Source: Thermodesulfobacteriota bacterium
GTDB lineage: Bacteria > Thermosulfidibacterota > Thermosulfidibacteria > Thermosulfidibacterales > B14-G1
Reading direction: 5' to 3'
Assembly (NCBI GenBank): GCA_024274915.1
Contig: JAJSAC010000024.1
Span: 5,234-69,233 of the forward strand
DNA: 64,000 bases
A program made the position numbers and the translations under genes. Position 1 is the stretch's first letter. Every line of letters begins with the position of its first letter. Shown in pieces: positions 8,639 through 58,293 of this stretch. The notes under the pieces are model-generated. The model searched no databases. It had not been told where the DNA came from and worked only from the letters and a program-made list of their open reading frames with translations.

Positions 8639-8721
8639 GATGGGCCAGGAGCGGCGTCAGGTCTTGAACCAGGGTGTCTTGGCGAGGGACAGGGGGCAAA
8701 AGAAGAAACAAGGAGAAAACC

Positions 8722-10119: not shown

Positions 10120-10122
10120 GGC

Positions 10123-15338: not shown

Positions 15339-15348
15339 TGATAGGAGA

Positions 15349-25765: not shown

Positions 25766-25782
25766 TTACCTCCCGGGTTTTA

Positions 25783-27150: not shown

Positions 27151-27683
27151 AGTTCCTCCACGATCACTTCTCGATTGGTGTATATGCAGATGCTGGAGGC
27201 TATGCGTAAGGCCTCCAGGGCGATCTCCCTGGGGGACAGCTGGGTGTGGGTGATGAGGGCCCGGGCGGCCGCCAGGGCATAGGGTCCCCCCGAGCCGATG
27301 GCCATCACTCCGTCGTCGGGTTCTATCACGTCCCCCGTGCCCGATATGAGGAAAGAGTTCTCTTGGTCTGCCGCTATGATGAAGGCTTCAAGACGTCTCA
27401 AGGCCCTGTCCGTCCTCCAGTCCTTGGCCAGTTCCACGGCGGCTCTGGCCAGATTGCCACTGTAGCCCTGAAGCTTTTCTTCCAGGCGGACCAGGAGGGT
27501 GAGGGCATCAGCCGAGGCACCAGCAAACCCCACTATGACCTTGTCCTGGAAGATCTTTCTCACCTTTTTTGCCTTTGCTTTGATCACTGTATTGCCTAAA
27601 GTCACCTGTCCGTCCCCGGCTACGGCCACTTTGTTCCCTTTTCTCACGGCTACGATGGTGGTACCCTTCAATTCCGTCATCAC
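27147..27683 (-). CDS. hslV: HslV (ClpQ) peptidase subunit
   Basis: The N-terminus is [21 protein letters not shown] (catalytic Thr after the leader). 178 aa. Confidence 0.95.
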
Positions 27684-43295: not shown

Positions 43296-43299
43296 GGTT

Positions 43300-44616: not shown

Positions 44617-44873
44617 GACCCTGTCTATCTTCTAAATTAGGAGATTCTTTGTAGTCTTCCATGGTCCTTTTTTGCGACAAAAGGTCTCTTAGTCTCTTAA
44701 AAGGGTGGGGTTTTCCTGGCAGGCCTTCTGTCCATACTCCTTGCTTCCCCCTTGGGGGTGCCCCTGGAAAGGGGGAAAGCCTGGAGAGCCTTTCCTTGAC
44801 AGAAGGGGGGGCTTTCTAATATTAAGCACCGTTGCTTTTTGCCGTGGGCCTTTGCCCCTTCGTGGAGGTAGAG

Positions 44874-46397: not shown

Positions 46398-46400
46398 TAG

Positions 46401-46901
46401 GTGAGGCAGATCAAGAGACGAATTTATCCCATAGAAGAGAACTGCATGGGCTGCAGGCTATGTGAGGTGGCCTGTGCCGTGGAGCATTCAAAGACCAAGG
46501 ACCCTATTTCAGCCTTTCTAGAGGAAGGCTGGGAACCTTTCTCCCATACCGTGGTGGAGATGATAGGGCCTGTCTCTTTTTCCTTGTCGTGCCGCCATTG
46601 CGATGAGCCTTACTGTGTGGAGGCCTGCATATCCGGGGCCCTCAGGGTGGAGGGCGACGGTCGGGTGGTGGTCTATGAAGAGGTATGCGTGGCCTGTGGC
46701 ATGTGCGTTGTATCCTGTCCTTGGGGAGCTATAAAGCCCAGGAAGAGGGACGGGGTGGTGAAAGCGGCCAAATGTGACCTATGCCCGGACAGGGAAGTGC
46801 CGGCCTGCGTGGCCGCCTGTCCTAACCGGGCCTTAATTTTCGACACCGCTTTAGGACCCGGTTTAGAGAAGGTGGAGGAAGAGGAGATCATCGAGGGATG
46901 A
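46401..46901 (+). CDS. 4Fe-4S dicluster protein
   Basis: Motifs CMGCRLCEVAC, CRHCDEPYCVEAC, CVACGMCVVSCP and CDLC..ACVAACP. Confidence 0.8.
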   Translation: MRQIKRRIYPIEENCMGCRLCEVACAVEHSKTKDPISAFLEEGWEPFSHTVVEMIGPVSFSLSCRHCDEPYCVEACISGALRVEGDGRVVVYEEVCVACGMCVVSCPWGAIKPRKRDGVVKAAKCDLCPDREVPACVAACPNRALIFDTALGPGLEKVEEEEIIEG

Positions 46902-46905
46902 TGGC

Positions 46906-48306
46906 ATGAGGTATGTGATTGCAGGGAACTCGGTGGCCACGGTGGCGGCCATAGAAGCTATCAGAAAACGGGATGACAAGGGCGAAATTGTTGTCATCTC
47001 ACCCGAGGCCAGAACGGCCTACTGTCGTCCCCTCATCACCTATCATCTGGCAGGCCAGGTACCAGCTGAGCGTTTACCCTATCGCCAGGAAGGATTCTAC
47101 AAGGCCCAAGGGGTCAGGGTTCTCTACAACAGGGCCTTGGAAGGTTTGGAGCCTGAAAAGGGTCGTGTGGTCCTTACAGGGGGAGAGAAACTGGAGTTCG
47201 ACCGGCTTCTTTTGGCTATAGGTGCCACTCCCTTCATTCCTCCCATCGAAAGGGTAGAAGGTCCTGGGGTCTATCCCTTCACCAGCATGGATCACATGGA
47301 GGCCGTGGAAGCCCAGCTGAAGGATTGGAGAGAAGTGGTGGTGGTGGGAGCGGGCATGATCGGCATTAAGACGGCCGAGGCTCTACATGCCAGGGGTGTG
47401 AAAGTCACTATTGTGGAGCTCCTGGACAAGATCCTTCCCATTGTTTTGGATGAGGCCTCCAGTGCATGGGCCCGGGAGACCTTGGAGAAGGCAGGGGTGG
47501 AGTATGTTTTGGGCGATTCGGTGGTGGCTGTGGAAAGGAATGCTCAGGGTGACGTGAAAGGAGTCACCCTCAGAAGTGGAACCTTCATACCCTGCCAGGG
47601 TGTCATAGTGGCTGTGGGGGTGAGACCCAATGTGGCGCCCCTGAGTGGCTCCGGGGTGGACATAAACAAAGGGGTGTTGGTGGATGACCGCATGGAAACT
47701 AGTCTGGAGAACGTCTTTGCTGCCGGTGACGTGGTGGAGGCCTACGATCTCATCCTGGGTGCCAAAAGGCCTATCCAGCTGTGGCCCTTGGCATATCGCC
47801 AGGGTCTCATAGCCGGGGCCAACATGGCGGGAGGCAGAAAACGCTATGTGGGAGGGTTTCCCATAAACTCTGTGGGTTTCTTGGGCTTCAAGGTGGCTTC
47901 TGCTGGGCTTTCCACGGTAGAGCCCGGTGTGGAGGAGGAGTCTTTTGAAGTCATGGTCTTTGAAGATAAGGAGAGGGGCGTCTACCGGAAAGTGGTGGTG
48001 GGCAATAACAGGCTCATGGGTTTTCTACTCCTCAATGACACCAGTCGAGCTGGGGTCTATTCGGGTCTCATCTGGTCCCGTATGGACATCTCCCTCTTCA
48101 AGGACGCCCTGGTAGAGGAGGTAAGCATGCCCGAGGCCTGCCGACTTGCCGCTTACGGCCTGGAACCCTGGAGCTTTGAGTCTATGAGGGACTTCAGGAG
48201 GATGGGCTGGGCCCTCTTCCCCAGGAGCTATCGAAAACATTTCACGGCCATGCCTAGCAGGATAGAAGAGGTCTGCGCCTTTGAATCGGAGGTTTGCACG
48301 ATATGA
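46906..48306 (+). CDS. FAD/NAD(P)-dependent pyridine nucleotide-disulfide oxidoreductase family protein
   Basis: Two Rossmann motifs ([17 protein letters not shown] and [16 protein letters not shown]) plus AAGDVVE. Confidence 0.8.
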
Positions 48307-49409
48307 GCTGGTACCGGAAAATCTCGGGCTGTGGACTTTCGGGGATCATTAGCCGGAAGAGGCAGCTCATTCCTGGCGAGGAGATCATCAAGAGCATCGT
48401 CCACCAGGAGGAGAGGGGTAACCAGCTAGGGGCGGGTTTTGCTGGTTACGGCATATATCCCCAGTTTCCTGACTGTTATGCCCTTCATGTCATGTACGAC
48501 CACGAGTTCTCCAAGGAGGAGACGGAAGAGTATATCAGGAACAAGTTCCATGTGGAGCACTTCGAGGATATTCCTACCCGGAGGACCCCGGCCATAAAGG
48601 ACAGACCCATTCTCTTTCGCTACTTTGTGAAGCCTCTCAGTGTCCATGGCGAGACCATGGTTCCTGATGACTTCGTCATGGAGACGGTTATGGAGATCAA
48701 CGAGAAGATTGACGGGGCCTTTGTCTTCTCCTCGGGTAAGAACATGGGGGCCTTTAAGGGGGTGGGGGGACCTGCGGAGATAGCCGAGTTTTTCAGGATA
48801 GACGAGTACTCTGCCCATCAGTGGATTGCCCACACCCGTTTCCCCACCAACACCCCGGGATGGTGGGGAGGGGCTCATCCTTTCACCCTTTTGGACTGGG
48901 CTGTGGTCCACAACGGGGAGATCTCCAGCTACGGTATCAATCGGCGCTATCTAGAGATGTTCGGTTACAGATGTACCCTTATGACAGATACGGAGGTGGT
49001 GGCCTATCTGGTAGACCTTCTGGTTAGGCGACACGGTTTACCCCTGCGCATAGCGGCCTATGCTCTGGCGGCTCCCTTCTGGAAGGACATAGACCGTATG
49101 GAAGAGAGGGGGCAGGAGCTCTTAACCGCCATGCGGATGGTCTACGGCAGTGCCCTTCTCAATGGTCCCTTCGCGGTCCTGGTGGCCTGGAACGGGGGTA
49201 TGATGGGTCTCAATGATAGGATTAAGCTGAGGCCCCTGGTGGCTGCCGTTCATGGGGATAGGGTGTACATGGCTAGTGAAGAGTCAGCCATCAGGGCTGT
49301 GTGTCCCCGGCCTGATAAGGTGTGGGCTCCCAAGGCGGGAGAGCCAGTGATTGTTCCCTTTGACGATTCATCAGATGCCTGGGAGGTGAAAGGGTGTCAG
49401 AGCCTTTGA
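48294..49409 (+). CDS. Class-II (Ntn) glutamine amidotransferase domain protein (GltB domain 1-like)
   Basis: [18 protein letters not shown] and [11 protein letters not shown] motifs. The putative catalytic Cys lies 12 residues after the ATG at 48294, or 9 after the ATG at 48303. Confidence 0.8.
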
Positions 49410-50149
49410 TCATAGATGCTGATGGAATGTATTATAGGGAACTGAATCAGATCATCCGGGACAAGGTGAAGGAGGGGGTCACCCATTTCCGCCTATTGAA
49501 CGTCAACGGTCAACGCTACATTGGTGCCGGTCTCACCAGGGAGGTCTTTATCGAGGTCTTCGGCGTGGCAGGCCAAGACCTGGGGATCTTTATGAAGGGT
49601 CCCACCATTGTGGTCCGTAGCAATGCCCAGGACTGTGTGGGCAACACCATGGAAGGAAAGAAGATCGTGGTCCATGGCATGGCAGGGGATGTTTGCGGCT
49701 ACGGCATGCGGGGCGGTAAGCTCCACATCCTGGGGGACGTGGGCTATAGGGTTGGTATCCACATGAAGACCTACAAAGACATGGTGCCCGTCATTATTGT
49801 GGGCGGCAAGGCAGGGGACTTTTTCGGCGAGTACATGGCTGGAGGTATCCTGATTCTCCTCAACCTGTGGGACAACGACTCTCGTCCCATGGTGGGGGAT
49901 TACCTGGCTACGGGCATGCACGGGGGCACTATCTATATCCGTGGCGAGGTAGATCCCTATCTCATGGGCAAGGAAGTGGGACAGGTGGAAATGACGGAGG
50001 GGGACAAGGCCCTCTTGAAGGACCTATTAGAGGACTACTGTGGGGACTTTTCCGAGTATCATCTGGATCCCCAGGAAATTTTGGACCATCCCTTCACCAA
50101 GCTGATCCCTGTTTCCAGCAGACCTTACGGCAAAGTCTACGCTTACTGA
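49394..50149 (+). CDS. GXGXG-motif protein (glutamate synthase C-terminal beta-helix domain)
   Basis: Repeats [59 protein letters not shown] start overlapping the previous gene by 16 nt. Confidence 0.85.
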
Positions 50150-50153
50150 AGCC

Positions 50154-50999
50154 TTGAGGTTCGGTTTTCACTGCTCTATTGCTGGCGGGTTGGTTAGGGC
50201 CCTGGAACGGGCCCAAGCCCTTGGCTGCGATACCCTCCAGTTTTTTACCAGGAATCCCCGGGGGTGGCGTTTTACCCCTCTGGAGCCTTCTCAGGTGGAA
50301 GCCTTCCGCCTGAGGGCCAAAGAAACGGGGTTGACTCCTCTGGTGGTCCACATGCCCTATCTGCCCAACCTGGCTTCTCCAAGGGGCGATCTCTACGAAA
50401 AGAGCCTGGAGTCTCTAAAGGCCGAGATGGTCCGTTGCCGTGCCTTGGGGGTGAACTATCTGGTGACCCACGTGGGTAAGGCCATGGAGAGTGAACGGAG
50501 CGAAGCATTGGAGCGCGTGGCCCAGGCCTTGAGGCAGGCCATGGACCTTCAGGGACCGACTATTCTATTGGAGAATACGGCGGGCCAGGGTTCAGAATTG
50601 GGGGCCGAACTCAGGGATTTGGGGAGGATTATGAAACTGGTAGGAAGGGGGGCTCGAATGGGGGTGTGCATAGATACTGCGCACGCCTTTCAAGCGGGGT
50701 ATTCCATCCATACCACCGGGGGGCTTGGGGCCTTTTTGGAAGAGTTGGATAGGGAGGTGGGTTTGGATCGTTTGGAGCTCCTTCACCTCAACGATTCCAG
50801 GACTCCCCTGGGGTCCAGGGTGGACCGCCATTGGCACATAGGGGAGGGCCATATAGGGCTGGAGGGTTTCAAGATTATCATAGGCCATTCCCTCTTGAGA
50901 GATCTCCCTGCTATAATGGAAACACCATATTCCCCCTTTTGGGATAGGAAAAATATGGATCGTGTGAGGGGATTGGACCGGATGTTTGTTTATGATTAA
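50154..50999 (+). CDS. nfo: Deoxyribonuclease IV (endonuclease IV)
   Basis: Motifs GFHCSIAGG, VVHMPYLPNLAS, LLENTAGQG, CIDTAHAF, HLNDS. TTG start. Confidence 0.9.
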   Translation: MRFGFHCSIAGGLVRALERAQALGCDTLQFFTRNPRGWRFTPLEPSQVEAFRLRAKETGLTPLVVHMPYLPNLASPRGDLYEKSLESLKAEMVRCRALGVNYLVTHVGKAMESERSEALERVAQALRQAMDLQGPTILLENTAGQGSELGAELRDLGRIMKLVGRGARMGVCIDTAHAFQAGYSIHTTGGLGAFLEELDREVGLDRLELLHLNDSRTPLGSRVDRHWHIGEGHIGLEGFKIIIGHSLLRDLPAIMETPYSPFWDRKNMDRVRGLDRMFVYD

Positions 51000-51060: not shown

Positions 51061-51090
51061 TTGACACCCTAGGTGGAGCTATCATATAGA
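51061..51090 (+). promoter_or_regulatory. Candidate sigma70 promoter for the por/nuoEFG-like operon (TTGACA-N18-TATAGA)
   Basis: TTGACA at 51061-66 and TATAGA at 51085-90. GAGGAGG at 51108-14 precedes the ATG at 51120. Confidence 0.45.
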
Positions 51091-51119
51091 AGGTACTGTT
51101 TATTTTGAGAGGAGGGGCC

Positions 51120-51668
51120 ATGGTAGAGATCAGATTTCATGGAAGAGGAGGACAGGGTGCAGTCACCTCGGCCGAGCTGCTGGCCCAGGCGGCCATTAAG
51201 GAGGGCAAGCATGCCCAGGCTTTCCCTGCCTTTGGTGCAGAGAGGCGGGGGGCCCCCGTTCTGGCCTTCACTCGGATCTCTGATGAGGTCATCAAGCTGA
51301 GAACCGGTATCTATCATCCCGATGTGGTTATAGTACTGGATCCCTCGCTGGTGAAGGCTGTGCCTGTGGTGGCAGGACTGAAGGAAGGGGGCCTGGTGGT
51401 TCTCAATTCCAAGAAAGGACCGGGTGACTGGAAGAAGGAGTTGGGTAGGGAGGATGTACAGGTGGCCTCTGTGGACGCCACCTCCATTGCTATGGAGGAG
51501 TTGGGGGTTCCCATCACCAATGTGGTCATGTTGGGGGCCTTAGTTAAGGCCAAGCCTTTGGTGGGCTTGGAGCCCCTTGAGGAATTCATCGCCCAGAGGT
51601 TTCCCAGGATTGCTGAGAAGGAGATAAAAGCCTTCCGTAGGGCTTATCAAGAAGCGAGGGTGGAATGA
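51120..51668 (+). CDS. porG: 2-oxoacid (pyruvate-type):ferredoxin oxidoreductase gamma subunit
   Basis: MVEIRFHGRGGQGAVTSAELLAQAAI..FPAFGAERRGAPV. The ATG at 51120 is preferred over the TTG at 51105. Confidence 0.9.
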   Translation: MVEIRFHGRGGQGAVTSAELLAQAAIKEGKHAQAFPAFGAERRGAPVLAFTRISDEVIKLRTGIYHPDVVIVLDPSLVKAVPVVAGLKEGGLVVLNSKKGPGDWKKELGREDVQVASVDATSIAMEELGVPITNVVMLGALVKAKPLVGLEPLEEFIAQRFPRIAEKEIKAFRRAYQEARVE

Positions 51669-51961
51669 TGAAGTTGAAAGAGAGACCAACCTGGAAGGAG
51701 TTGCCCTTTGCCTGCTGTATCCCAGAGCCGGGCAACAGTGTTTACTATAAGACCGGGGACTGGAAGACCCTCAAGCCTGTGGTGGATAAGACGAAGTGCA
51801 TCAAGTGCGGCACCTGTTGGATCTTCTGTCCCGAGTACGCTTACGAGGAGGATGAGTACGGCTACTACGAGTCCAACTACGAGTACTGCAAGGGGTGCGG
51901 TATCTGCTACAGGGAGTGCCCGGCCCAATGTATAACAATGGAAGAAGAGGTGGTGGAATAA
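51665..51961 (+). CDS. porD: 2-oxoacid:ferredoxin oxidoreductase delta subunit (2x[4Fe-4S])
   Basis: Motifs CIKCGTCWIFCP and CKGCGICYRECP. 98 aa. Confidence 0.9.
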   Translation: MMKLKERPTWKELPFACCIPEPGNSVYYKTGDWKTLKPVVDKTKCIKCGTCWIFCPEYAYEEDEYGYYESNYEYCKGCGICYRECPAQCITMEEEVVE

Positions 51962-53157
51962 TGGCCAAGAGAACAGGAATCGAGGTATCCATTGCCATCG
52001 CTGAAGCTGCTCGTCAGGCTAATGTGGACGTGGTTTCCGCCTACCCCATTACTCCCCAGACCCACATAGTGGAACACCTGGCCCAGTTGGTGGCCGATGG
52101 GGATCTGGATGCAGAATACATTACGGTGGAGTCGGAGCACACGGCCATGAGCGCCTGTGTGGGGGCTTCGGCGGCTGGGGCCCGGGTCTTCACTTCTACC
52201 AGTTCCCAGGGTTTGGCCCTCATGAACGAGATTGTCTACCTGGCTAGCAGTCTCCGGACCCCTGTGATTATGGCCCTGGCCAATAGGGCCCTTTCAGGTC
52301 CCATCTCCATCTGGAATGACCATTCCGATGTAATGAATGAGAGGGATACGGGTTGGATCTGCATCTTTGCCAATAACGGTCAGGAGGCCTATGATTTGAC
52401 CCTAATGGCTTTCAGGATCGGAGAGGACCGGCGGGTGATGCTCCCTGTCATGGTCAACTTTGACGGTTTCATTCTCACCCACGTTATTGAGCCTATTCAC
52501 ATCTTCGAGGACCAGGAGATTGCCGACTTTATTCCTCCCTATGAGCCCCTCTGTGTTCTGGATACCGATAATCCCATCACCGTGGGTCCCGTGGGTGTCC
52601 CCGACGTTTATACCGAGGCCAAGAAGCAGCAAGAGATGGCCATTAGGGAGTCCCGTCCTGTCATAGAGGAGGTCTTCGAAGAGTTTGCCCGGCGCTATGG
52701 GCGTCGTTATAGACCCGTGGAGACTTACAGGGCCGACGATGCGGAAATAGTTCTCCTGGCTCAAGGCTCTGTCATTGAAGCTGCCGAAGTGGCTGTTGAC
52801 CACCTCAGGGATCAGGGGAAAAAGGTGGGAACTGTGGAGCTGAGGCTCTGGAGGCCTTTTCCCTTTGACGATCTCAGGGAGGTTCTCTGCAGCACTTCCA
52901 TCAAGCAAGTGGTGGTCCTGGACAGGTGCATCTCCTTCGGCGGTCCTCCAGGACCCGTCCTTTCCGAGGTGAGGTCGGCCCTGTATCTGGAAAAGGATAA
53001 GCCCATGGTGGTGGGTGTCGTGGCTGGACTGGGCGGTAGGGATATTTCCCTGGAAGAGTATGTGGAAATGTTCGAGATCGGTGAGGAGTGTCTCAGGACA
53101 GGGAAGGATCCGGGTGAGGAACCCGAATTAGTGAAGATAGTGGGGTTGAGAGAATGA
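51961..53157 (+). CDS. porA: 2-oxoacid:ferredoxin oxidoreductase alpha subunit
   Basis: The ATG at 51961 overlaps the porD TAA. AYPITPQT..ESEHTAMSACVGASAAGARVFTSTSSQGL. Confidence 0.9.
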   Translation: MAKRTGIEVSIAIAEAARQANVDVVSAYPITPQTHIVEHLAQLVADGDLDAEYITVESEHTAMSACVGASAAGARVFTSTSSQGLALMNEIVYLASSLRTPVIMALANRALSGPISIWNDHSDVMNERDTGWICIFANNGQEAYDLTLMAFRIGEDRRVMLPVMVNFDGFILTHVIEPIHIFEDQEIADFIPPYEPLCVLDTDNPITVGPVGVPDVYTEAKKQQEMAIRESRPVIEEVFEEFARRYGRRYRPVETYRADDAEIVLLAQGSVIEAAEVAVDHLRDQGKKVGTVELRLWRPFPFDDLREVLCSTSIKQVVVLDRCISFGGPPGPVLSEVRSALYLEKDKPMVVGVVAGLGGRDISLEEYVEMFEIGEECLRTGKDPGEEPELVKIVGLRE

Positions 53158-54113
53158 GTGTAGTGCAGAGACCAAAAGAGGCCTATCTCAACGTTTTCGC
53201 CTATAGGATGGCTCCCAAGGAGGAGTTTTTCACTAGGGGGCACAGGGCGTGTCAGGGTTGCGGTCCCGCTTTGGGGTTGCGCCATATAATGAAGGCGGCA
53301 GGTAGAGATACCATAGTAGTGAACGCCACAGGTTGTATGGAGATCATTTCCTCTCCGTTTCCCTATACCTCCTGGGCGGTGCCTTGGATCCATGTGGCCT
53401 TTGAGAATGCCGCCGCCGTGGCTTCGGGTATTGATGCCGCCATTAAAGCCCTTCAAAGGAAGGGCAGGATTCCCAAGAAAAAGACCAACATTTTGGTCAT
53501 TGCTGGAGACGGCGGCACAGCTGACATCGGCCTCCAGGCTTTATCGGGCATGTTGGCCAGGGGGCACAATGTGACTTACCTCTGCTACGACAACGAGGCT
53601 TACATGAACACGGGGGTGCAGGGCTCTTCTGCAACCCCATTCGGTGCCAGTACCACAACAACTCCTGCTGGGAGGGTGAGCTTTGGGGCTGGTTACTGGA
53701 AGAAGAACGTGGCCGCCATAGCCGCTGCCCATGACATCCCCTACGTGGCCACGGCTTGCCCCAGCTATCCCCTGGATCTCATTCGCAAGGTGAGGCGCTC
53801 CTTTGAGCTGGAGGGTCCGGCTTATATTCATCTCTTTGCCGTGTGTCCCACGGGGTGGGGGACCCCTCCTGAACTCACTGTCAGAATGGGTAGACTGGCT
53901 GTGGAGACGGGGATATTCCCCTTGTATGAGGTTGAAAATGGCCGCTACAAGTTGACTGTAGATTTTCCCCAGGGATTGAGACCAGTGGAGGATTATCTGA
54001 AGAACCAGAGGCGGTTCAGACATCTCACTCCAGAAATCATCCAGCAGATCCAGGAGAGGATAACGGCGGAGTACGAGCGGCTCAAAATGATGGAAAAAGT
54101 GACTCAGGAGTGA
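53154..54113 (+). CDS. porB: 2-oxoacid:ferredoxin oxidoreductase beta subunit (TPP-binding)
   Basis: CQGCG, GCMEI, and the TPP motif GDGGTADIGLQALSG...YDNEAYMNTG. Confidence 0.9.
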   Translation: MSVVQRPKEAYLNVFAYRMAPKEEFFTRGHRACQGCGPALGLRHIMKAAGRDTIVVNATGCMEIISSPFPYTSWAVPWIHVAFENAAAVASGIDAAIKALQRKGRIPKKKTNILVIAGDGGTADIGLQALSGMLARGHNVTYLCYDNEAYMNTGVQGSSATPFGASTTTTPAGRVSFGAGYWKKNVAAIAAAHDIPYVATACPSYPLDLIRKVRRSFELEGPAYIHLFAVCPTGWGTPPELTVRMGRLAVETGIFPLYEVENGRYKLTVDFPQGLRPVEDYLKNQRRFRHLTPEIIQQIQERITAEYERLKMMEKVTQE

Positions 54114-54601
54114 TGGCCATGGCAGAAGTAGCGACGGTAGAGAATCTGGAGCAAAACGTAAGGGAGGCGATGGCCCGGTACGGGAACAACCCCGCCCGGA
54201 TGATAGAAATTCTTCAGGATCTCCAGGACATTTACGGTTATCTTTCCAAGGATCTTTTGAAAGAGGTGAGCCGCCAGACTGAGGTTCCTTTGGCTAGGGT
54301 CTACCACATTGCCACCTTTTTCAAGGCCTTTACTCTGAAGCCCAGAGGCAAGTACACCATCCAGGTCTGTACGGGGACGGCTTGCCACGTCAAAGGTTCT
54401 TACAGGGTGTTGGAGAGGCTGGAGGATGTGTTGGGCGTCAGGGCAGGGGACACCACCGACGACCTCATGTTCACCCTGGAGACGGTGAACTGTGTGGGAG
54501 CCTGTGCCTTGGGCCCTGTGGTTATCATTAATGGGAAGTATTATGGCCATGTCACCCCTGTCCAGGTGGAATCTTTGATAAAGGAGTATAGGGAGCGATG
54601 A
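54110..54601 (+). CDS. NuoE/HydC-like [2Fe-2S] thioredoxin-fold subunit
   Basis: IQVCTGTACHVKG...VNCVGACALGPVV. Overlaps porB by 4 nt. Confidence 0.85.
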   Translation: MMAMAEVATVENLEQNVREAMARYGNNPARMIEILQDLQDIYGYLSKDLLKEVSRQTEVPLARVYHIATFFKAFTLKPRGKYTIQVCTGTACHVKGSYRVLERLEDVLGVRAGDTTDDLMFTLETVNCVGACALGPVVIINGKYYGHVTPVQVESLIKEYRER

Positions 54602-56436
54602 GGCGGTTAGAGAGTCGAGAGGATCTGGAGAGGTTTAGGGAAGAGGCCCTTTCTAGGCGGCCCGAGAGGTTCATCTCTTTGGGCATGGGTACGGCTTCCA
54701 GGGCCCACGGTGCGGAGGCTGTTTACTTCGTTCTGAAAGAGGAGGTGGCGAAAAGGGGGTTGGATATTCCCATAAAGGCTACGGGAGACCATGGCCTCTG
54801 CGGTTATGCTCCCGTGATGGTGATATATCCTGATGGTGTCCTTTATCACAGTGTCAAGGCCCAGGACGTGCCTGATATACTGGATGCGGTGGAGAAGGGG
54901 GAGATTATCGAGAGGCTCCTCTACACGGACCCCATGACGGGTGTGACCTACACTTACGAGGAGGAGATCCCCTTTTATAAGAAGCAGATGAGGTTGGTGT
55001 TGGGCCCCATGGAGCTGGTGGAGCCCCTCTCCGTTGAGGATTACCTGTGCCATGGAGGTTTCTCAGCCCTGACCAAGGCCTTTTTCGACATGAAACCCGA
55101 GGAGATTATCCAGGAGGTGATCACTTCTGGTCTCAGGGGTAGAGGAGGGGCCGGCTTCAGGACGGGTTGGAAGTGGGAAGACGCGGCCATGAGACCCTCT
55201 CCCGTTAAGTACATCATCTGCAACGGGGATGAGGGGGATCCCGGGGCGTACATGGACAGGTGTCTCCTGGAGGGTCTGCCTTATGGAGTGTTGGAGGGTA
55301 TGATCATTGGAGCCTATGCCATAGGTGCTCACGAAGGCTTCGTTTACGTGAGGAAGGAGTACCCCTTGGCAACCCATAACGTGCAGAAGGCCATTGAGAC
55401 CCTGAGGGAGTTGGGCCTGTTGGGCGAGAACATCCTGGGTAGTGGTTTCGACTTCGATATCCAGGTGGTGAGGGGAGGCGGTGCTTTTGTGTGTGGTGAA
55501 TCTTCGGCCCTCATAGCTTCTGTAGAGGGTCGAGTTGGAGAGCCCAGGTCCAAGCACGTCCACGCCACTGAAAGCGGTCTGTGGGGCAGGCCTACTGTCC
55601 TTAACAACGTGGAGACCTTGGCCAATGTGCCTTACATTGTGAACAGGGGCGGAGAGTGGTTTGCAGCCATAGGTACGGAGGAGAGCAAAGGGACCAAGGT
55701 CTTCTCCTTGGCCGGAGACATTTATAACACTGGCCTGGTGGAAGTGCCCATGGGCATCACCCTCAAGGAAGTGGTGTACGACATCGGAGGAGGGATCCAG
55801 AACGGCAAGGCCTTCAAGGCCGTCCAGACAGGGGGACCCTCTGGAGGTTGTCTGCCGGCTTCCCAGCTGGACCTACCGGTGGAGTTCGACACCTTGGATG
55901 CTGCCGGGTCTATGATGGGTTCCGGTGGTATGATCGTCATGGACGAAGATGCCTGCATGGTGGACGTGGCCCGATATTTCGTGAAGTTCCTCACGGAAGA
56001 GTCCTGTGGTAAGTGCGTTCCCTGTCGGGAGGGTCTCAGGCATATGCTGGAGATCCTTGATCGCATCACCCAAGGTGAAGGTACCATGGAGGATGTGGAC
56101 CTTCTGGAGGAGCTGGGTTACGTCGTCGCCAACGCTTCCCTCTGTGGTTTGGGCAAGTCGGCACCCAACCCGGTGCTCTCCACCGTCCGGTATTTCCGCG
56201 AGGAGTACCTGGAGCACGTGAAGGACAAGAAGTGCCGGGCAGGCGTCTGTAAGGCTCTGGTGCATTATAAGATCATTGCCGAGAACTGTACCGGTTGTCA
56301 TATATGTTTCAAGGAGTGTCCTGTGGACGCCATCACCGGAGAACCCAAGGGTGTCCACGTTATAGACCAGGAGAAGTGCATAAAGTGCGGCATCTGCAAA
56401 GATGTCTGCAAGTTTGATGCTGTGAAGGTGGTGTGA
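54598..56436 (+). CDS. NuoF/HydB-like NADH-binding FMN/FeS subunit with C-terminal 2x[4Fe-4S] ferredoxin domain
   Basis: GLRGRGGAGFRTGWKW, NGDEGDPGAY, the SLBB region, ESCGKCVPCREG, and C-terminal CTGCHICFKECP..CIKCGICKDVC. Confidence 0.9.
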   Translation: MRRLESREDLERFREEALSRRPERFISLGMGTASRAHGAEAVYFVLKEEVAKRGLDIPIKATGDHGLCGYAPVMVIYPDGVLYHSVKAQDVPDILDAVEKGEIIERLLYTDPMTGVTYTYEEEIPFYKKQMRLVLGPMELVEPLSVEDYLCHGGFSALTKAFFDMKPEEIIQEVITSGLRGRGGAGFRTGWKWEDAAMRPSPVKYIICNGDEGDPGAYMDRCLLEGLPYGVLEGMIIGAYAIGAHEGFVYVRKEYPLATHNVQKAIETLRELGLLGENILGSGFDFDIQVVRGGGAFVCGESSALIASVEGRVGEPRSKHVHATESGLWGRPTVLNNVETLANVPYIVNRGGEWFAAIGTEESKGTKVFSLAGDIYNTGLVEVPMGITLKEVVYDIGGGIQNGKAFKAVQTGGPSGGCLPASQLDLPVEFDTLDAAGSMMGSGGMIVMDEDACMVDVARYFVKFLTEESCGKCVPCREGLRHMLEILDRITQGEGTMEDVDLLEELGYVVANASLCGLGKSAPNPVLSTVRYFREEYLEHVKDKKCRAGVCKALVHYKIIAENCTGCHICFKECPVDAITGEPKGVHVIDQEKCIKCGICKDVCKFDAVKVV

Positions 56437-56437
56437 C

Positions 56438-57148
56438 ATGGTGAAGCTGACCATAGACGGGAAAGAGGTTGTTGCCAGAGAGGGACAGACGGTTCTCGAG
56501 GCGGCTCAGGCGGCAGGGATTTATATTCCTGCCCTGTGTTACCATCACGAGGTGAAGCCCTATACCGCTTGTCGCCTTTGTATGGTGGAGGTGACCAAAG
56601 GCAAGAGGACCCGATTTGTCACTGCCTGTGACTATGTTGTGGCCGATAGCATGGTGGTGAGAACGGATACGGAGAAGGTAAAGAAGTGCCGCAAGCTGGT
56701 CCTGGAGCTCCTCATGGCCCAATGTCCCAACCTTCCCCAGCTCCAGGAGCTGGCCCAGATTATCGGTGTGGAAGAGGTCCGTTTCTCCAAAAGTAACGAC
56801 GACTGTATCCTCTGCGGCATGTGTGTCAGGACCTGTGCCGAGGTGGTGGGTCTCCATGCCATTGGCTTTGAAGGAAGGGGGTTTACCCGGAAGGTGTGTA
56901 CTCCCTTTGATGAGCCCAGTGAACCTTGCATCCTTTGCGGAGCCTGTTCGTATATTTGCCCTGTGGATGTCATCCCTGTAGAGGAAGTGGACGGTTACCG
57001 CATAATGGAACGGTGGCACAAGAAGTCCAGGCTGGTGGCCTGCAGCAAGTGTGGCAAGTACTTCATGACAGAGGACGAGTTCCGCTTCCTCCAGGAGAAG
57101 ACAGGGCTGCCCGAGGATAGGCTCCGGATCTGCATGGATTGCCGTTAG
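56438..57148 (+). CDS. NuoG/HydA N-terminal-like FeS protein (2Fe-2S + 4Fe-4S clusters) lacking any catalytic domain
   Basis: MVKLTIDGKEVVAREGQTVLEAAQAAGIYIPALCYH..CRLC, CILCGMCVRTC, CILCGACSYICP. The C-terminus is CSKCGKY...CMDCR. Only 236 aa. Confidence 0.8.
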   Translation: MVKLTIDGKEVVAREGQTVLEAAQAAGIYIPALCYHHEVKPYTACRLCMVEVTKGKRTRFVTACDYVVADSMVVRTDTEKVKKCRKLVLELLMAQCPNLPQLQELAQIIGVEEVRFSKSNDDCILCGMCVRTCAEVVGLHAIGFEGRGFTRKVCTPFDEPSEPCILCGACSYICPVDVIPVEEVDGYRIMERWHKKSRLVACSKCGKYFMTEDEFRFLQEKTGLPEDRLRICMDCR

Positions 57149-57166
57149 GGGTTTTATTTTTGTTAT

Positions 57167-57208
57167 AAAAAGAGGGGGCCAGAGTCATACTTCCAGCCCC
57201 CTCTTTTT
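57167..57208. terminator. Bidirectional intrinsic terminator between the nuoG-like gene and ilvE
   Basis: AAAAAGAGGGGGC (57167-79), a 16-nt loop and GCCCCCTCTTTTT (57196-208). The 9-bp GC-rich stem is flanked by an A-run and a T-run. Confidence 0.8.
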
Positions 57209-57222
57209 GACGGGATTGTTCT

Positions 57223-58293
57223 TTAGTCCACCAGCACCGTCCAGCCAGAGGGATCGGGACGGGTGCCGTACTGTATACCTGTTATCTCCTGGAAAAATCT
57301 CTCGGCCAGGGGTCCAGTCTCTCCCTGGTTGATGGTATAGTCCTTGCCCTTGTAATGGAGGAGGCCCACGGGAGATATGACAGCGGCGGTACCAGTACCA
57401 AATATCTCCAGGACTTCCCCTTTTTCCAAGCCTTCCAAGATCTCGTTTATGGTGATGGGTCTCTCCTGGATTTCTATTCCCCACTCCCGAGCCAGGCAGA
57501 TGACAGAGTCCCTGGTGACTCCAGGTAGTATGGAACCCGAAAGGGGTGGTGTGACCAAGGCCTCTTTAAAGAGGAAGAAGATGTTCATGGTGCCCACCTC
57601 TTCTACGAATCTCTTCTCCCTGGCGTCAAGCCACAGAACCTGGGAGTAGCCCTGGGTCTGGGCTTCTTGGGCGGCCTTGAGACTGGCGGCGTAATTGGCC
57701 GCCGCCTTGGTGTGGCCTATGCCCCCGGGCACGGCCCTGACATACTTGTCTGTCACCATGATCTTCACGGGATTGAAGCCCTCCTTGTAGTAGGCACCTA
57801 CGGGGCTGGCGATGATGAAAAAGAGGTACTCCAGGGCAGGTCTCACCCCCAAGGCCGGTTCCGTGGCGATCATGGTGGGCCTGATGTAGAGGGAGGCCCC
57901 TTCTGCCTGGGGTACCCAGCCCTTTTCCAGTCTCACCAGGGTCTTCACCGCCTCAATGAAAAGGTCGGGTTCTATGGTGGGCATGCAGAGGCGCTCTGCC
58001 GAGGCGTTGAGACGCCGGGCGTTCATGTCGGGCCTGAAGAGGCGGATCTTGCCGTCCTGGCCATGGTATGCCTTGAGCCCTTCGAATACTGCCTGGGCGT
58101 AGTGGAGGACCAGGGCAGCGGGGTCCAGCTGGATGGGCTGGTAGGGCACAATGCGGGGATGGTCCCATCCCCGGTCTTGGGTGTAGTTCATGAGAAACAT
58201 GTGATCGGTGAAGTGCTGACCAAAACCCAAGTTGGAAGGGTGGGGTTTGGTTTTTCTCTCCTCCGCCGGCAGGGAGTAGATCTCTATCTCCAT
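57223..58293 (-). CDS. ilvE: Branched-chain amino acid aminotransferase (class IV)
   Basis: 356 aa. Contains FEGLKAY, the K-containing GIGHTKAAANY region and GTGTAAVISPV. Confidence 0.9.
   Translation of the reverse strand: MEIEIYSLPAEERKTKPHPSNLGFGQHFTDHMFLMNYTQDRGWDHPRIVPYQPIQLDPAALVLHYAQAVFEGLKAYHGQDGKIRLFRPDMNARRLNASAERLCMPTIEPDLFIEAVKTLVRLEKGWVPQAEGASLYIRPTMIATEPALGVRPALEYLFFIIASPVGAYYKEGFNPVKIMVTDKYVRAVPGGIGHTKAAANYAASLKAAQEAQTQGYSQVLWLDAREKRFVEEVGTMNIFFLFKEALVTPPLSGSILPGVTRDSVICLAREWGIEIQERPITINEILEGLEKGEVLEIFGTGTAAVISPVGLLHYKGKDYTINQGETGPLAERFFQEITGIQYGTRPDPSGWTVLVD

What the first reader, a model, noticed from the sequence alone, without database searches (positions are those of the whole stretch)
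51061..57208. porGDAB translationally coupled to a NuoE/NuoF/NuoG-N-terminal-like module: candidate NAD(H)-linked or bifurcating 2-oxoacid oxidoreductase
- **Operon.** Seven genes form one tight unit. Junctions overlap at 51665/68, 51961, 53154/57, 54110/13 and 54598/601, and there is a 1-nt gap at 56436/38. The unit runs from a TTGACA-N18-TATAGA promoter candidate to a strong bidirectional terminator.
- **Flavin/FeS trio.** It has the hallmarks of HydABC/NuoEF-type electron-bifurcating modules: an FMN/NADH site and a C-terminal 2x[4Fe-4S] domain on the NuoF-like subunit.
- **Truncated third subunit.** It stops after the N-terminal FeS domains (236 aa). No hydrogenase, formate dehydrogenase or other catalytic domain is attached.
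- **Interpretation.** The only catalytic partner encoded is the 2-oxoacid:ferredoxin oxidoreductase. This suggests direct coupling of pyruvate or branched-chain 2-oxoacid oxidation to NAD+ and ferredoxin.
- **Status.** Associations of this type have, I believe, been predicted bioinformatically, but I know of none characterised biochemically.
Basis: partly seen in the sequence, partly recalled or inferred. Interest (0 to 1): 0.65.

Follow-up and report, generated by a model that had tools for sequence, protein, structure and literature searches.

The report
Pyruvate oxidoreductase with bifurcating NADH module
Seven tightly packed genes encode a four-subunit pyruvate:ferredoxin oxidoreductase joined to a three-subunit flavin/iron-sulfur module, an enzyme type ("Por-Bfu") predicted from genomes in 2022 but apparently never purified; this copy comes from a new bacterial lineage and lacks one iron-sulfur cluster once thought invariant.

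Summary
Seven co-directional ORFs (porG-porD-porA-porB-bfuC-bfuB-bfuA, 51120-57148) have five overlapping junctions and one 1-nt gap, and end at a strong hairpin.

The architecture matches "Por-Bfu", a Type 2 member of the BfuABC electron-bifurcating family predicted by Schut et al. 2022 (PMC9304861). No biochemical study turned up in the searchable library.

Evidence for one enzyme rather than two neighbours:
- The seven-gene block is kept in at least 12 loci down to about 40-55% identity while the flanking genes change.
- The block order is reversed in one locus.
- In two Actinomycetota contigs a BfuA-type subunit is fused to PorB in one polypeptide.

BfuB, BfuC and BfuA match solved bifurcating enzymes best; BfuA is a full-length match to WorA of WorABCSL. 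FMN/NADH motifs and the B1, B2/Zn (including the diagnostic His), B3/B4, C1, A1, A2 and A4 ligands are intact.

One defining feature fails. Three of the four Cys of the N-terminal [2Fe-2S] cluster (B5) are replaced in this clade only.

The substrate is most likely pyruvate. The ilvE neighbour is not conserved.

Verdict: a new member of a known, predicted kind, from new phyla and B5-less. Moderate interest.

The parts
51061..51090 (+). Promoter-like hexamers TTGACA-N18-TATAGA. A weak candidate only.
   Evidence: Read. Not reported by the consensus scan because the -10 hexamer lacks the final T. Promoter-like sites in the region are no more frequent than in shuffles.
51120..51668 (+). porG (also called porC), the gamma subunit of 2-oxoacid:ferredoxin oxidoreductase. 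182 aa from ATG 51120; an alternative TTG start lies at 51105.
   Evidence: PF01558 POR, E 5e-44. NF006321 pyruvate ferredoxin oxidoreductase gamma, 226.9 bits against a cut-off of 225. RBS GAGGAGGGG lies before ATG 51120.
51665..51961 (+). porD, the delta subunit, carrying 2x[4Fe-4S] (Cys 45/48/51/55 and 75/78/81/85).
   Evidence: Fer4_21 and Fer4 hits. TIGR02179 PorD_KorD, 97.7 bits against a cut-off of 60. Cys positions. ATGA overlap with porG.
51961..53157 (+). porA, the alpha subunit (398 aa).
   Evidence: POR_N E 2e-74 and PFOR_II E 9e-26. Best NCBIfam model is PorA_Arch, 508 bits, below its 550 cut-off. Homologues are named pyruvate ferredoxin oxidoreductase.
53154..54113 (+). porB, the beta subunit. 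TPP site GDG-x26-NEAYMN at residues 118-152; Cys 33/36/61/231 for the proximal [4Fe-4S].
   Evidence: TPP_enzyme_C. NF008819 PorB, 421 bits against a cut-off of 405. Best solved relatives are PFOR beta 9bt4_C (E 1.5e-95) and oxalate oxidoreductase beta 5c4i_C. Motifs.
54110..54601 (+). bfuC (NuoE/HydC-like), carrying [2Fe-2S] cluster C1 (Cys 87/92/128/132).
   Evidence: PF01257, E 1e-51. Best solved matches are bifurcating HydC and NfnC (E 1e-45 to 9e-36), against 2e-25 to 1e-18 for bacterial complex I and FDH subunits (mitochondrial complex I about 5e-30). Start codon overlaps the porB stop.
54598..56436 (+). bfuB (NuoF/HydB-like, 612 aa). Contains the FMN/NADH site, B1 (C470/473/476/516), the B2/Zn site (C453, T491, H540, C546, C551) and B3/B4 (8 Cys, residues 564-604). 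The N-terminal thioredoxin-like domain is kept, but its B5 ligands are G29, S34, D64, C68.
   Evidence: Pfam. Alignments to WorB 9mqx_B, HydB 8a6t_B and NiFe-HydB 7t2r_B at 746-757 bits, against 351-414 bits for non-bifurcating homologues. Site tables. Motifs.
56438..57148 (+). bfuA, a short WorA-like NuoG N-terminal module (236 aa). Contains A1 [2Fe-2S] (C34/45/48/64), two [4Fe-4S] clusters A2 and A4 (C123/126/129/133 and C164/167/170/174), and a C-terminal CxxC...CxxC zinc-finger-like motif (C202/205/232/235). No His-ligated A3 cluster and no catalytic domain.
   Evidence: Fer2_4 and Fer4 hits. Full-length match to WorA 9mqx_A, residues 3-236 to 6-234, E 2e-45. WorA cofactors as described in PMC12318220. 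Cys positions.
57167..57209 (.). Bidirectional intrinsic-terminator-like hairpin between the convergent bfuA and ilvE.
   Evidence: A-run, then a 12-bp G+C-rich stem, then a T-run. MFE -27.4 kcal/mol, z = -2.98. The simple scan missed it because its loop exceeds 8 nt.

Best explanation
**Proposal.** The seven genes form one operon encoding a Por-Bfu enzyme, a Type 2 member of the BfuABC flavin/FeS electron-bifurcating family.

**Catalysis.** PorABDG catalyses the reversible reaction pyruvate + CoA <-> acetyl-CoA + CO2 + 2e- at its TPP site.

**Inferred electron path.**
1. Electrons leave through the PorB [4Fe-4S] and the two PorD [4Fe-4S] clusters.
2. They enter BfuA at its distal [4Fe-4S] (A4), next to the C-terminal zinc-finger region that varies with the partner enzyme.
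3. They pass A2 and A1 to the B1-FMN-C1 'flavobicluster' of BfuB/BfuC.
4. There, four electrons from two pyruvate are split. Two go as a hydride to NAD+ at FMN. Two go singly, through the mobile C1 cluster and B3/B4, to ferredoxin.
5. The proposed net reaction is 2 pyruvate + 2 CoA + NAD+ + 2 Fd(ox) -> 2 acetyl-CoA + 2 CO2 + NADH + 2 Fd(red). It would be reversible.

**Direction.** In an anaerobe that builds pyruvate from acetyl-CoA, the reverse (confurcating) direction would let NADH supply half the electrons for pyruvate synthesis.

**The B5 variant.** In this lineage the N-terminal BfuB domain is kept but has lost the B5 [2Fe-2S] ligands. It probably has a structural or ferredoxin-docking role only.

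**Shown versus inferred.** Shown: gene content, cofactor ligands, operon compactness, conserved linkage, and a fusion in relatives. Inferred: a seven-subunit complex, the electron path, obligate coupling, and the physiological direction.
For: 1. **Compactness.** Five overlapping start/stop junctions and one 1-nt gap.
2. **Conserved linkage.** The block porGDAB-bfuCBA recurs in L081, L082, L083/84, L089, L092, L062, L095, L096, L098, L103 and L113, and partly in L093/94, at 38-95% identity. Flanking genes differ. Source names span Aquificota/Thermosulfidibacter, Deferribacteres, Myxococcota and delta-proteobacteria.
3. **Linkage survives rearrangement.** L107 has bfuCBA-porGDAB. L024 and L038 have porGDA-bfuCB followed by one uninterrupted ORF that carries the BfuA [2Fe-2S] domain, a GltD-like module, Fer4 domains and PorB.
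4. **Best solved relatives are demonstrated bifurcating enzymes.** BfuB scores 636-757 bits against WorB, HydB and NfnB. It scores 351-414 bits against non-bifurcating FdsB and Nqo1. The same ranking holds for BfuC and BfuA.
5. **Ligands are intact** for B1, the B2/Zn site (including the His that Schut et al. report as absent from non-bifurcating homologues), B3/B4, C1, A1, A2 and A4 (PMC9304861).
6. **BfuA's C-terminus tracks the partner.** The last ~60 residues are conserved in all Por-linked BfuA but differ in BfuA linked to another partner, while the N-terminal 177 aa stay 47% identical.
7. **Precedent.** WorABCSL couples a similarly low-potential donor (aldehyde) to simultaneous NAD+ and Fd reduction. 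It uses a near-identical short BfuA (PMC12318220; PMC9304861).
8. **Minimal site.** The 2025 structures define the minimal bifurcation site as B1-FMN-C1, with Zn rather than FeS at B5 in two active enzymes (PMC11829005 and PMC12018979).
Against: - No protein-level data exist for any Por-Bfu.
- B5, listed in 2022 as invariant in the BfuBC core, has lost 3 of 4 Cys here. Removing the B5-bearing domain in T. kivui HydABC greatly reduced bifurcation, and B5 was called essential in S. ovata NfnABC (PMC12018979).
- BfuA lacks the C-terminal adaptor helix that recruits the partner in WorABCSL. It ends two residues after the zinc-finger motif.
- Close POR relatives (PorA 60-69% identical) exist as ordinary standalone porGDAB operons (L090, L091).
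- No indel or extension distinguishes Bfu-linked from standalone PorD or PorB.
- Thermodynamically, pyruvate could reduce NAD+ or Fd without bifurcation, a problem acknowledged in PMC9304861.
Confidence: 0.6

Rival explanations
1. Two separate enzymes share one operon. One is an ordinary ferredoxin-dependent POR. The other is a free-standing BfuABC-like NADH:ferredoxin oxidoreductase. They communicate only through diffusible ferredoxin.
For: - Close POR relatives occur without any Bfu genes (L090, L091).
- No distinguishing insertions appear in Bfu-linked PorD or PorB.
- BfuA lacks WorA's C-terminal adaptor helix.
- Functionally related enzymes are often co-transcribed.
Against: - A BfuABC module has no third substrate of its own, because its BfuA carries no catalytic domain.
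- Linkage persists through three gene orders.
- BfuA is fused to PorB in L024 and L038.
- BfuA's C-terminus co-varies with partner type.
- The porB stop overlaps the bfuC start.
Confidence: 0.2
2. A physical complex forms but does not bifurcate. It would be an NAD+-linked pyruvate oxidoreductase that funnels POR electrons to NAD+ at FMN. Ferredoxin, via B3/B4, would be an optional second outlet. Loss of B5 would have uncoupled the system.
For: - B5 ligands are lost in this clade only.
- Deleting the B5-bearing domain crippled bifurcation in T. kivui HydABC (PMC12018979).
- Pyruvate oxidation is exergonic with either acceptor (PMC9304861).
- There is a precedent for NAD-linked OFORs: NCBIfam models for NADH-dependent phenylglyoxylate dehydrogenase PadE/F/G/I give sub-threshold hits.
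Against: - The B1-FMN-C1 site, the B2/Zn site with its diagnostic His, and the ferredoxin-side B3/B4 clusters are all strictly kept.
- The B5-less N-terminal domain is itself conserved within the clade, for example FISLGMGTASRAHGAEAVY across 79-93%-identical proteins. This suggests it remains under selection.
- Two active bifurcating NfnABC enzymes have Zn, not FeS, at B5.
- WorABCSL shows obligate coupling with an equally low-potential donor.
Confidence: 0.12
3. The catalytic partner is not a pyruvate enzyme. It acts on another 2-oxoacid, such as 2-oxoisovalerate as hinted by the adjacent ilvE, or on oxalate.
For: - A class IV aminotransferase (ilvE-like) lies convergent, 75 nt downstream.
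- PorA and PorD fall below the pyruvate equivalog cut-offs.
- PorB matches oxalate oxidoreductase beta almost as well as PFOR beta among solved structures.
- OFOR substrate range is hard to read from sequence.
Against: - PorB (421 bits, cut-off 405) and PorG (226.9 bits, cut-off 225) pass pyruvate-specific NCBIfam cut-offs.
- The VOR beta (354, cut-off 405), VOR alpha (347, cut-off 646) and oxalate (350, cut-off 590) models fail.
- Gamma and delta are separate genes, unlike the fused delta subunit of oxalate oxidoreductase.
- ilvE is not next to the cluster in L081, L082 or L083.
Confidence: 0.1
4. The Bfu module serves the split glutamate synthase encoded 1-6 kb upstream rather than POR.
For: - Glutamate-synthase genes (44832-50149) precede nfo and por-bfu in the window, L081 and L083/84.
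- The nearest non-Por relatives of BfuB (61-63% identity) sit in bfuCBA clusters followed by a Glu_synthase-domain gene (L085-L088).
Against: - L082 keeps por-bfu without the glt genes.
- nfo, and in L083 a histidine kinase, intervenes.
- The upstream cluster has its own Pyr_redox_2 NAD(P)H subunit and a Fer4 protein.
- The Bfu-linked Glu_synthase-like protein is only 25% identical, over 193 aa, to the window's GltB-like protein.
- BfuA's C-terminus is of the Por-linked type, not the Glu_synthase-linked type.
Confidence: 0.03

Closest known systems
Por-Bfu (Por-BfuABCDEFG), a Type 2 Bfu enzyme predicted by Schut et al. 2022 (PMC9304861). Example: Dehalococcoides mccartyi 195.
   Same: - Seven genes: four POR subunits plus BfuA, BfuB and BfuC in one cluster.
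- A short BfuA with A1, A2 and A4 only.
- A BfuB with a C-terminal 2x[4Fe-4S] domain and the B2-site His.
- Uncharacterised biochemically.
   Different: - The source lineage carries Aquificota/Thermosulfidibacter labels in NCBI MAG names. The paper lists only Chloroflexi and Proteobacteria, 12 sequences.
- BfuB here has lost 3 of the 4 Cys of cluster B5, which that paper treats as invariant.
WorABCSL, the tungsten aldehyde oxidoreductase-Bfu of Acetomicrobium mobile (PDB 9MQX; PMC12318220).
   Same: - Best solved match for both BfuB (757 bits) and BfuA (full length, E 2e-45).
- The same short BfuA with A1, A2, A4 and a four-Cys zinc finger, and no A3.
- A low-potential third substrate is oxidised on separate subunits, and the enzyme is shown to reduce NAD+ and Fd only together.
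   Different: - The partner is a TPP-dependent POR, not a tungstopterin WOR with a polyferredoxin nanowire.
- BfuA ends right after the zinc finger, without WorA's C-terminal adaptor helix.
- B5 ligands are lost here.
Standalone four-subunit pyruvate:ferredoxin oxidoreductase PorABDG (e.g. PDB 9BT4; NCBIfam NF008819 and NF006321).
   Same: - Subunit set, domain order and the porGDAB gene order.
- The TPP motif and all cluster ligands.
- Relatives with PorA 60-69% identical are ordinary standalone operons (L090, L091).
   Different: Here porB is translationally coupled to three further genes that add an FMN/NADH site and seven more predicted FeS clusters.
HydABC, the electron-bifurcating [FeFe]-hydrogenase (T. 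maritima 7P5H, T. kivui 8A6T, A. woodii 7Q4V).
   Same: A homologous BfuBC core: FMN, B1, the Zn/B2 site, B3/B4 and C1. The N-terminal FeS domains of HydA are shared.
   Different: There is no H-cluster domain. The third substrate is handled by separate POR subunits. A3 and B5 are absent.
NADH-dependent phenylglyoxylate dehydrogenase PadEFGHI (NCBIfam NF045762-NF045766).
   Same: An OFOR-family enzyme that delivers electrons to NAD+ through an extra flavoprotein subunit.
   Different: All Pad equivalog scores are far below their cut-offs (177/300, 79/150, 292/700, 219/700). The NAD module here is of the NuoEFG/Bfu type and unrelated to PadH.

Membership tests
BfuABC electron-bifurcating family (Schut 2022 definition) | BfuB with an FMN/NAD(H)-binding NuoF-type domain | tested here: met
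   Complex1_51K, E 1e-41. Motifs GRGGAGF at 181, GDEGDPG at 210 and GGAFVCGE at 294.
BfuABC electron-bifurcating family (Schut 2022 definition) | B1 [4Fe-4S] next to FMN (4 Cys) | tested here: met
   C470, C473, C476 and C516 are present, and conserved in all 143 aligned homologues.
BfuABC electron-bifurcating family (Schut 2022 definition) | B2 site (Cys, Thr/Cys, His, Cys, Cys), including the His reported absent from non-bifurcating homologues. Later structures show Zn at this site. | tested here: met
   C453, T491, H540, C546 and C551 map onto C438, C476, H525, C531 and C536 of A. mobile NiFe-HydB (definition).
BfuABC electron-bifurcating family (Schut 2022 definition) | B3 and B4: a C-terminal 2x[4Fe-4S] ferredoxin-like domain on BfuB | tested here: met
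   Eight Cys at 564-604. Fer4 hits at residues 555-609.
BfuABC electron-bifurcating family (Schut 2022 definition) | B5: an N-terminal thioredoxin-like [2Fe-2S] cluster on BfuB (4 Cys) | tested here: not met
   The ligand positions are G29, S34, D64 and C68. The domain is retained without the ligands. Under the 2025 revision, which sets the minimal site as B1-FMN-C1 and finds Zn at B5 in two active enzymes, B5 is no longer held essential.
BfuABC electron-bifurcating family (Schut 2022 definition) | BfuC with [2Fe-2S] cluster C1 | tested here: met
   C87, C92, C128 and C132 align with HydC of T. kivui and T. maritima.
BfuABC electron-bifurcating family (Schut 2022 definition) | Obligately coupled three-substrate reaction (NAD, Fd, third substrate) | not testable with these tools
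   Requires an enzyme assay.
Por-Bfu (Type 2 Bfu) | Four POR subunit genes in one cluster with bfuA, bfuB and bfuC | tested here: met
   The cluster is conserved in at least 12 related loci.
Por-Bfu (Type 2 Bfu) | BfuA with A1, A2 and A4 but without A3 and A5 | tested here: met
   Four Cys for A1 and 2 x 4 Cys for A2 and A4 align with WorA. The His-x3-C-x2-C-x5-C (A3) motif is absent, with only C96 in that stretch. The A5-equivalent Cys form a WorA-like zinc-finger motif.
Por-Bfu (Type 2 Bfu) | One physical seven-subunit complex | not testable with these tools
   Indirect support only: the BfuA-PorB fusion in L024 and L038, alternative gene orders, and the partner-specific BfuA C-terminus.
Four-subunit pyruvate:ferredoxin oxidoreductase (PorABDG) | Alpha, beta, gamma and delta subunits with a TPP motif, the beta-subunit [4Fe-4S] Cys and delta 2x[4Fe-4S] | tested here: met
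   Pfam. GDG-x26-NEAYMN, PorB Cys 33/36/61/231, and eight Cys in two CxxCxxCxxxC motifs in PorD. Best solved match is PFOR beta 9bt4_C.
Four-subunit pyruvate:ferredoxin oxidoreductase (PorABDG) | Curated NCBIfam equivalog scores for pyruvate specificity | tested here: inconclusive
   PorB (421 bits, cut-off 405) and PorG (226.9, cut-off 225) pass. PorA (508, cut-off 550) and PorD (108, cut-off 120) fall short. VOR and oxalate models score lower.
Respiratory complex I N-module (NuoEFG) | Part of a nuo operon with Q- and P-module genes; NuoF without extra FeS domains; full-length NuoG | tested here: not met
   No nuo membrane or Q-module genes are adjacent. The best NCBIfam NuoF model (TIGR01959) scores 466 bits, below its 559 cut-off, and the protein has extra N- and C-terminal domains. 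The NuoG-like protein is 236 aa.
NADH-dependent phenylglyoxylate dehydrogenase (PadEFGHI) | Equivalog-level similarity of the four OFOR subunits, plus a PadH-type flavoprotein | tested here: not met
   All four scores are far below their cut-offs. There is no PadH-like gene in the cluster.

The most novel reading that the evidence does not exclude
This is a naturally B5-less Por-Bfu that still bifurcates or confurcates. In a thermophilic anaerobe labelled Thermosulfidibacter/Aquificota in NCBI MAG names, it would run mainly as a pyruvate synthase, using NADH plus reduced ferredoxin together to carboxylate acetyl-CoA. That would place electron confurcation inside autotrophic or acetate-assimilating carbon fixation. 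It would also be natural proof that a redox-active B5 cluster is dispensable for the Bfu mechanism.
Probability: 0.25. Interest if true: 0.7.

Novelty: new member of a known kind. Interest (0 to 1): 0.45.

Why it matters
**An untested enzyme class.** Por-Bfu is one of several predicted Bfu enzyme classes that nobody appears to have purified. Pyruvate:ferredoxin oxidoreductase sits at the acetyl-CoA/pyruvate node of anaerobic carbon metabolism.
- If the coupling is real, half the electrons for pyruvate synthesis could come from NADH instead of scarce low-potential ferredoxin.
- In the other direction, pyruvate oxidation would charge both redox pools in a fixed ratio.
- Either way, energy and redox budgets would change in models of Dehalococcoidia, syntrophs, Myxococcota and deep-branching thermophiles.

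**A practical target.** The proteins look thermophilic and the operon is compact, which suits heterologous expression.

**A mechanistic test.** The loss of the B5 ligands bears on a live disagreement in the field. Is B5 part of the bifurcation site, as T. kivui and S. ovata data suggest, or dispensable, as in the minimal 'flavobicluster' model?

**Evidence for a complex.** The BfuA-PorB fusion found in Actinomycetota contigs is, as far as I could find, new evidence that these modules form one complex.

Tried and rejected
1. **Source genome.** A genome-contig scan with BfuB returned only relatives of 60% identity or less. Taxonomy therefore rests on source names of 90%-identity cluster members.
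2. **Sigma-54 promoter.** Suggested by the upstream sigma-54 activator. No match lies near the operon, and the total count is below the chance expectation.
3. **Sigma-70 and terminator scan.** It also missed the terminator because of its loop length. Folding confirmed the hairpin.
4. **Adaptor features in POR.** I looked for insertions or extensions that distinguish Bfu-linked from standalone PorD and PorB. None were seen, but only two standalone comparators were available.
5. **ilvE as a substrate clue.** Rejected, because the neighbour is not conserved.
6. **Upstream glutamate synthase as the real Bfu partner.** Rejected.
7. **Literature on characterisation.** Searches for Por-Bfu, D. mccartyi locus tags and porABDG+nuoEF found no experimental characterisation. 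The library omits most subscription journals, so this absence is not proof.
8. **RNA elements.** Rfam and tRNA scans of the window found none in or near the operon.
9. **Structure prediction.** Not run. The tool folds single chains only, so it could not test the subunit docking that matters. Sequence matches to solved homologues already covered the full lengths.

Full report

Yes. Seven + strand ORFs occupy 51105/51120-57148.

Pfam and NCBIfam assign them as follows:
- PorG: PF01558
- PorD: 2x[4Fe-4S]
- PorA: POR_N + PFOR_II
- PorB: TPP_enzyme_C
- a NuoE-type [2Fe-2S] protein: PF01257
- a 612-aa NuoF-type protein: Complex1_51K, NADH_4Fe-4S and a C-terminal 2xFer4 domain
- a 236-aa protein: only the N-terminal FeS domains of NuoG/HydA (Fer2_4 + 2xFer4)

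The junctions read directly from the sequence are ATGA, TAATG, ATGA, GTGATG, ATGA and TGAcATG. That is five overlaps and one 1-nt gap, as reported.

Downstream, a 12-bp G+C-rich stem flanked by an A-run and a T-run (57167-57209) folds at -27.4 kcal/mol with z = -2.98. It lies between bfuA and a convergent class IV aminotransferase gene.

Two corrections apply. porG most likely starts at ATG 51120, behind GAGGAGGGG. The TTGACA-N18-TATAGA promoter candidate is weak: it lacks the conserved last T of the -10 box and was not called by the scan, which found no excess of promoter-like sites over shuffles.

Base composition is uniform across the region. The minus-strand ORFs inside the operon are the usual overlapping frames of a 55% G+C genome.

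**2. What is it?**

The architecture has a published name. Schut et al. 2022 (PMC9304861) surveyed HydABC homologues and defined the BfuABC family. They listed 'Por-Bfu (A-G)' as an uncharacterised Type 2 member. It has four POR subunits plus BfuABC and was found as 12 sequences in Chloroflexi and Proteobacteria. Its BfuA holds only clusters A1, A2 and A4.

The term 'Por-Bfu' occurs in only two papers of the library. No search found a biochemical study.

**3. Subunit-level tests.**

*BfuB.*
- It aligns over residues 28-608 with solved bifurcating subunits: WorB 9mqx_B and HydB 8a6t_B at 757 bits, and NiFe-HydB 7t2r_B at 746 bits.
- Non-bifurcating FdsB and Nqo1 score 351-414 bits.
- Mapping onto A. 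mobile HydB shows the B2-site ligands are present: C453, T491, H540, C546 and C551. This includes the His that Schut et al. report as missing from non-bifurcating homologues.
- B1 (4 Cys) and B3/B4 (8 Cys) are intact.

*BfuC.* It keeps the four C1 cysteines and matches HydC and NfnC best.

*BfuA.*
- It is a full-length match to WorA of the aldehyde-oxidising WorABCSL (9mqx_A, E 2e-45).
- All ligands of A1, A2 and A4 are conserved, as is the four-Cys zinc finger described for WorA (PMC12318220).
- The His-ligated A3 cluster is absent.
- Unlike WorA, BfuA ends two residues after the zinc-finger motif. It has no C-terminal adaptor helix.

*POR.*
- The POR appears catalytically complete. It has the TPP motif GDG-x26-NEAYMN, PorB Cys 33/36/61/231, and two CxxCxxCxxxC motifs in PorD.
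- PorB and PorG pass NCBIfam pyruvate-specific cut-offs, while the VOR and oxalate models do not.
- The best solved relative of PorB is a four-subunit PFOR (9bt4_C), closely followed by oxalate oxidoreductase.

**4. The feature that fails.**

The N-terminal thioredoxin-like domain of BfuB is retained, but three of the four Cys that bind the B5 [2Fe-2S] cluster are replaced. The ligand positions are G29, S34, D64 and C68.

Among Por-Bfu loci this pattern is confined to the window's own clade: the window, L081, L082, L093 and L094. All other Por-Bfu keep four Cys.

L095 is instructive. Its Por subunits are 91-95% identical to the window's, yet its BfuB is only 73% identical and keeps B5. The difference is concentrated in the N-terminal 130 residues (47-51% identity, against 78-87% in the core).

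Within the B5-less clade the altered domain is itself conserved. This suggests a retained, non-redox role.

The 2022 paper treats B1-B5 and C1 as invariant. The 2025 structures instead found Zn at B5 in two active NfnABC enzymes and reduced the bifurcation site to B1-FMN-C1 (PMC11829005 and PMC12018979). Other work, cited in the second of those papers, found that deleting the B5-bearing domain crippled T. kivui HydABC. This clade is therefore a natural test case for that disagreement.

**5. Is the POR-Bfu adjacency meaningful?**

- *Conserved block.* The same seven-gene block occurs at 86%, 79% and 68% BfuB identity with different flanking genes (L081, L082, L083/84). It also occurs in more distant loci: L089, L092, L062, L095, L096, L098, L103 and L113.
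- *Taxonomic spread.* Source names for members of these protein clusters include Aquificota, Thermosulfidibacter takaii (a MAG), Deferribacteres, Myxococcota and Deltaproteobacteria.
- *Reversed order.* In L107 the two blocks are swapped, giving bfuCBA-porGDAB.
- *Fusion.* In two Actinomycetota/Thermoleophilia contigs (L024, L038) the order is porG-porD-porA-bfuC-bfuB followed by one uninterrupted ORF of about 1,090 codons. It carries the BfuA [2Fe-2S] domain, a GltD/NfnB-like FAD-NAD(P)H module, Fer4 domains and PorB. This Rosetta-stone fusion is the strongest computational argument found here that BfuA-type subunits and the POR beta subunit belong to one complex.
- *Partner-specific C-terminus.* The last ~60 residues of BfuA are conserved among all Por-linked copies. 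They differ in BfuA linked to another partner, although the first 177 residues stay 47% identical. That region is the partner-docking end of WorA.
- *Counter-evidence.* PORs with PorA 60-69% identical to the window's exist as plain porGDAB operons (L090, L091). I found no insertion that marks Bfu-linked PorD or PorB. The Bfu module therefore looks like a gain-and-loss accessory 'plug' on an otherwise ordinary POR.

**6. Mechanism proposed** (inferred from the solved homologues).

1. Pyruvate is decarboxylated at TPP.
2. Electrons pass the PorB and PorD clusters and enter BfuA at A4.
3. They run through A2 and A1 to the B1-FMN-C1 site.
4. Four electrons from two pyruvate are divided. A hydride goes to NAD+. 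Two low-potential electrons go to ferredoxin via the mobile C1 domain and B3/B4.

Using the potentials in Table 1 of PMC9304861 (pyruvate couple -500 mV; NAD about -280 to -320 mV; Fd about -420 to -500 mV), the oxidative direction is exergonic. The reverse, confurcating direction needs a favourable acetyl-CoA·CO2/pyruvate·CoA ratio, which is my own estimate. It would halve the demand for reduced ferredoxin in pyruvate synthesis. This is the role Schut et al. suggested for energy-limited organisms.

The 64-kb window does not decide which direction dominates here. It holds multihaem cytochromes, signalling proteins and housekeeping genes, but no diagnostic carbon-fixation genes.

**7. Rivals.**

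- *Two independent enzymes sharing an operon (0.2).* This fits the standalone relatives and the missing adaptor helix. It does not explain the fusion, the rearranged but preserved linkage, or a BfuA with no catalytic domain of its own.
- *A complex that reduces NAD+ without obligate coupling (0.12).* This fits the B5 loss, but all other coupling-side cofactors are strictly kept.
- *A different 2-oxoacid substrate (0.1).* This is an orthogonal question. The ilvE neighbour is not conserved, and the family scores favour pyruvate.
- *Service to the upstream split glutamate synthase (0.03).* This is disfavoured by L082, by the intervening genes, by only 25% identity between the relevant Glu_synthase-like proteins, and by the Por-type BfuA C-terminus.

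**8. Novelty and score.**

The kind is known as a published prediction. This is a new member from lineages not listed in that paper, and it carries a notable cofactor loss.

A specialist would not be surprised by the operon itself. The B5-less clade, the BfuA-PorB fusion and the breadth of the linkage would be of interest, because they sharpen an experimentally open question.

Interest is 0.45.

Noticed in passing
L038 5949-9215 (+); L024 about 6812 to the contig end (+): In two Actinomycetota/Thermoleophilia MAG contigs the gene after bfuB is a single ORF of about 1,090 codons. It fuses a BfuA [2Fe-2S] domain, a GltD/NfnB-like Fer4_20 + Pyr_redox_2 module, Fer4 domains and PorB (TPP_enzyme_C). 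The gene order is porG-porD-porA-bfuC-bfuB-fusion. This could be a hybrid 'Por-Nfn-Bfu' with an extra NAD(P)H site.
   Followed up: partly
L085-L088 (about 5500-10200 in each): The closest non-Por relatives of the window's BfuB (61-63% identity; one is named Chloroflexi) sit in a conserved cluster: bfuC, bfuB, a bfuA of 221-225 aa, then a 525-aa Glu_synthase-like (PF01645) protein. Glutamine synthetase and NRD1_2-type regulator genes lie nearby. The 2022 Bfu survey does not list this partner and never mentions glutamate. The partner is only 25% identical to the window's GltB-like protein.
   Followed up: partly
window 54598-54990 (BfuB residues 1-130); L095 6125-7999: Between the window and L095 the Por subunits are 91-95% identical, but BfuB is only 73% identical and its N-terminal domain 47-51%. 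L095 keeps all four B5 Cys. Independent partial B5 losses (patterns SGCC and G-CC) occur in the Glu_synthase-like-linked clade. B5 therefore seems to have been lost repeatedly.
   Followed up: partly
L107 647-7113 (L106 is partial): The block order is reversed to bfuC-bfuB-bfuA-porG-porD-porA-porB. In L010 and L026 a distantly related OFOR (24-33% identical to the window's Por subunits) lies directly upstream of bfuC. Bfu modules may therefore attach to more than one OFOR family.
   Followed up: partly
window 42252-50999: This stretch holds a PAS histidine kinase and a sigma-54 response regulator (42252-44616). These are followed by a split, archaeal-style glutamate synthase: a Fer4+Glu_synthase protein of 521 aa, a Fer4_11 protein of 166 aa, a Pyr_redox_2 protein of 466 aa, a GATase of 371 aa and a GXGXG protein of 251 aa. 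Endonuclease IV (nfo) follows. The GATase-GXGXG-nfo part also precedes por-bfu in L081 and L083/84, but not in L082.
   Followed up: partly
window 1492-8638: A cluster of large multihaem c-type cytochromes lies here. The 645-aa protein has 11 Paired_CXXCH_1 repeats; further ones are at 3399-4598, 5503-6558 and 7361-8638. An NHL-repeat protein sits at 4558-5499. The cluster resembles an extracellular or periplasmic electron-transfer module.
   Followed up: no
window 57223-58293 (-): A class IV (branched-chain/D-amino-acid) aminotransferase lies convergent to bfuA and shares the bidirectional hairpin. The neighbour is not conserved in L081 (mnmA-like), L082 (M48 peptidase) or L083 (cbiK).
   Followed up: yes
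window 27680-28558 (-) and 30094-30978 (+): Two XerC/XerD-type tyrosine recombinase genes flank a yicC-like gene (29154-30032). Several neighbouring ORFs (24875-27150) have no Pfam match.
   Followed up: no
window 11537-14290 (-) and 35380-38427 (+): Two very large signalling proteins are present. One has a PAS-GAF-HD-GYP-type architecture. The other combines GAF, HD, GGDEF and a periplasmic-binding domain. tRNA-Cys and tRNA-Gly lie at 15264-15423 (-).
   Followed up: no
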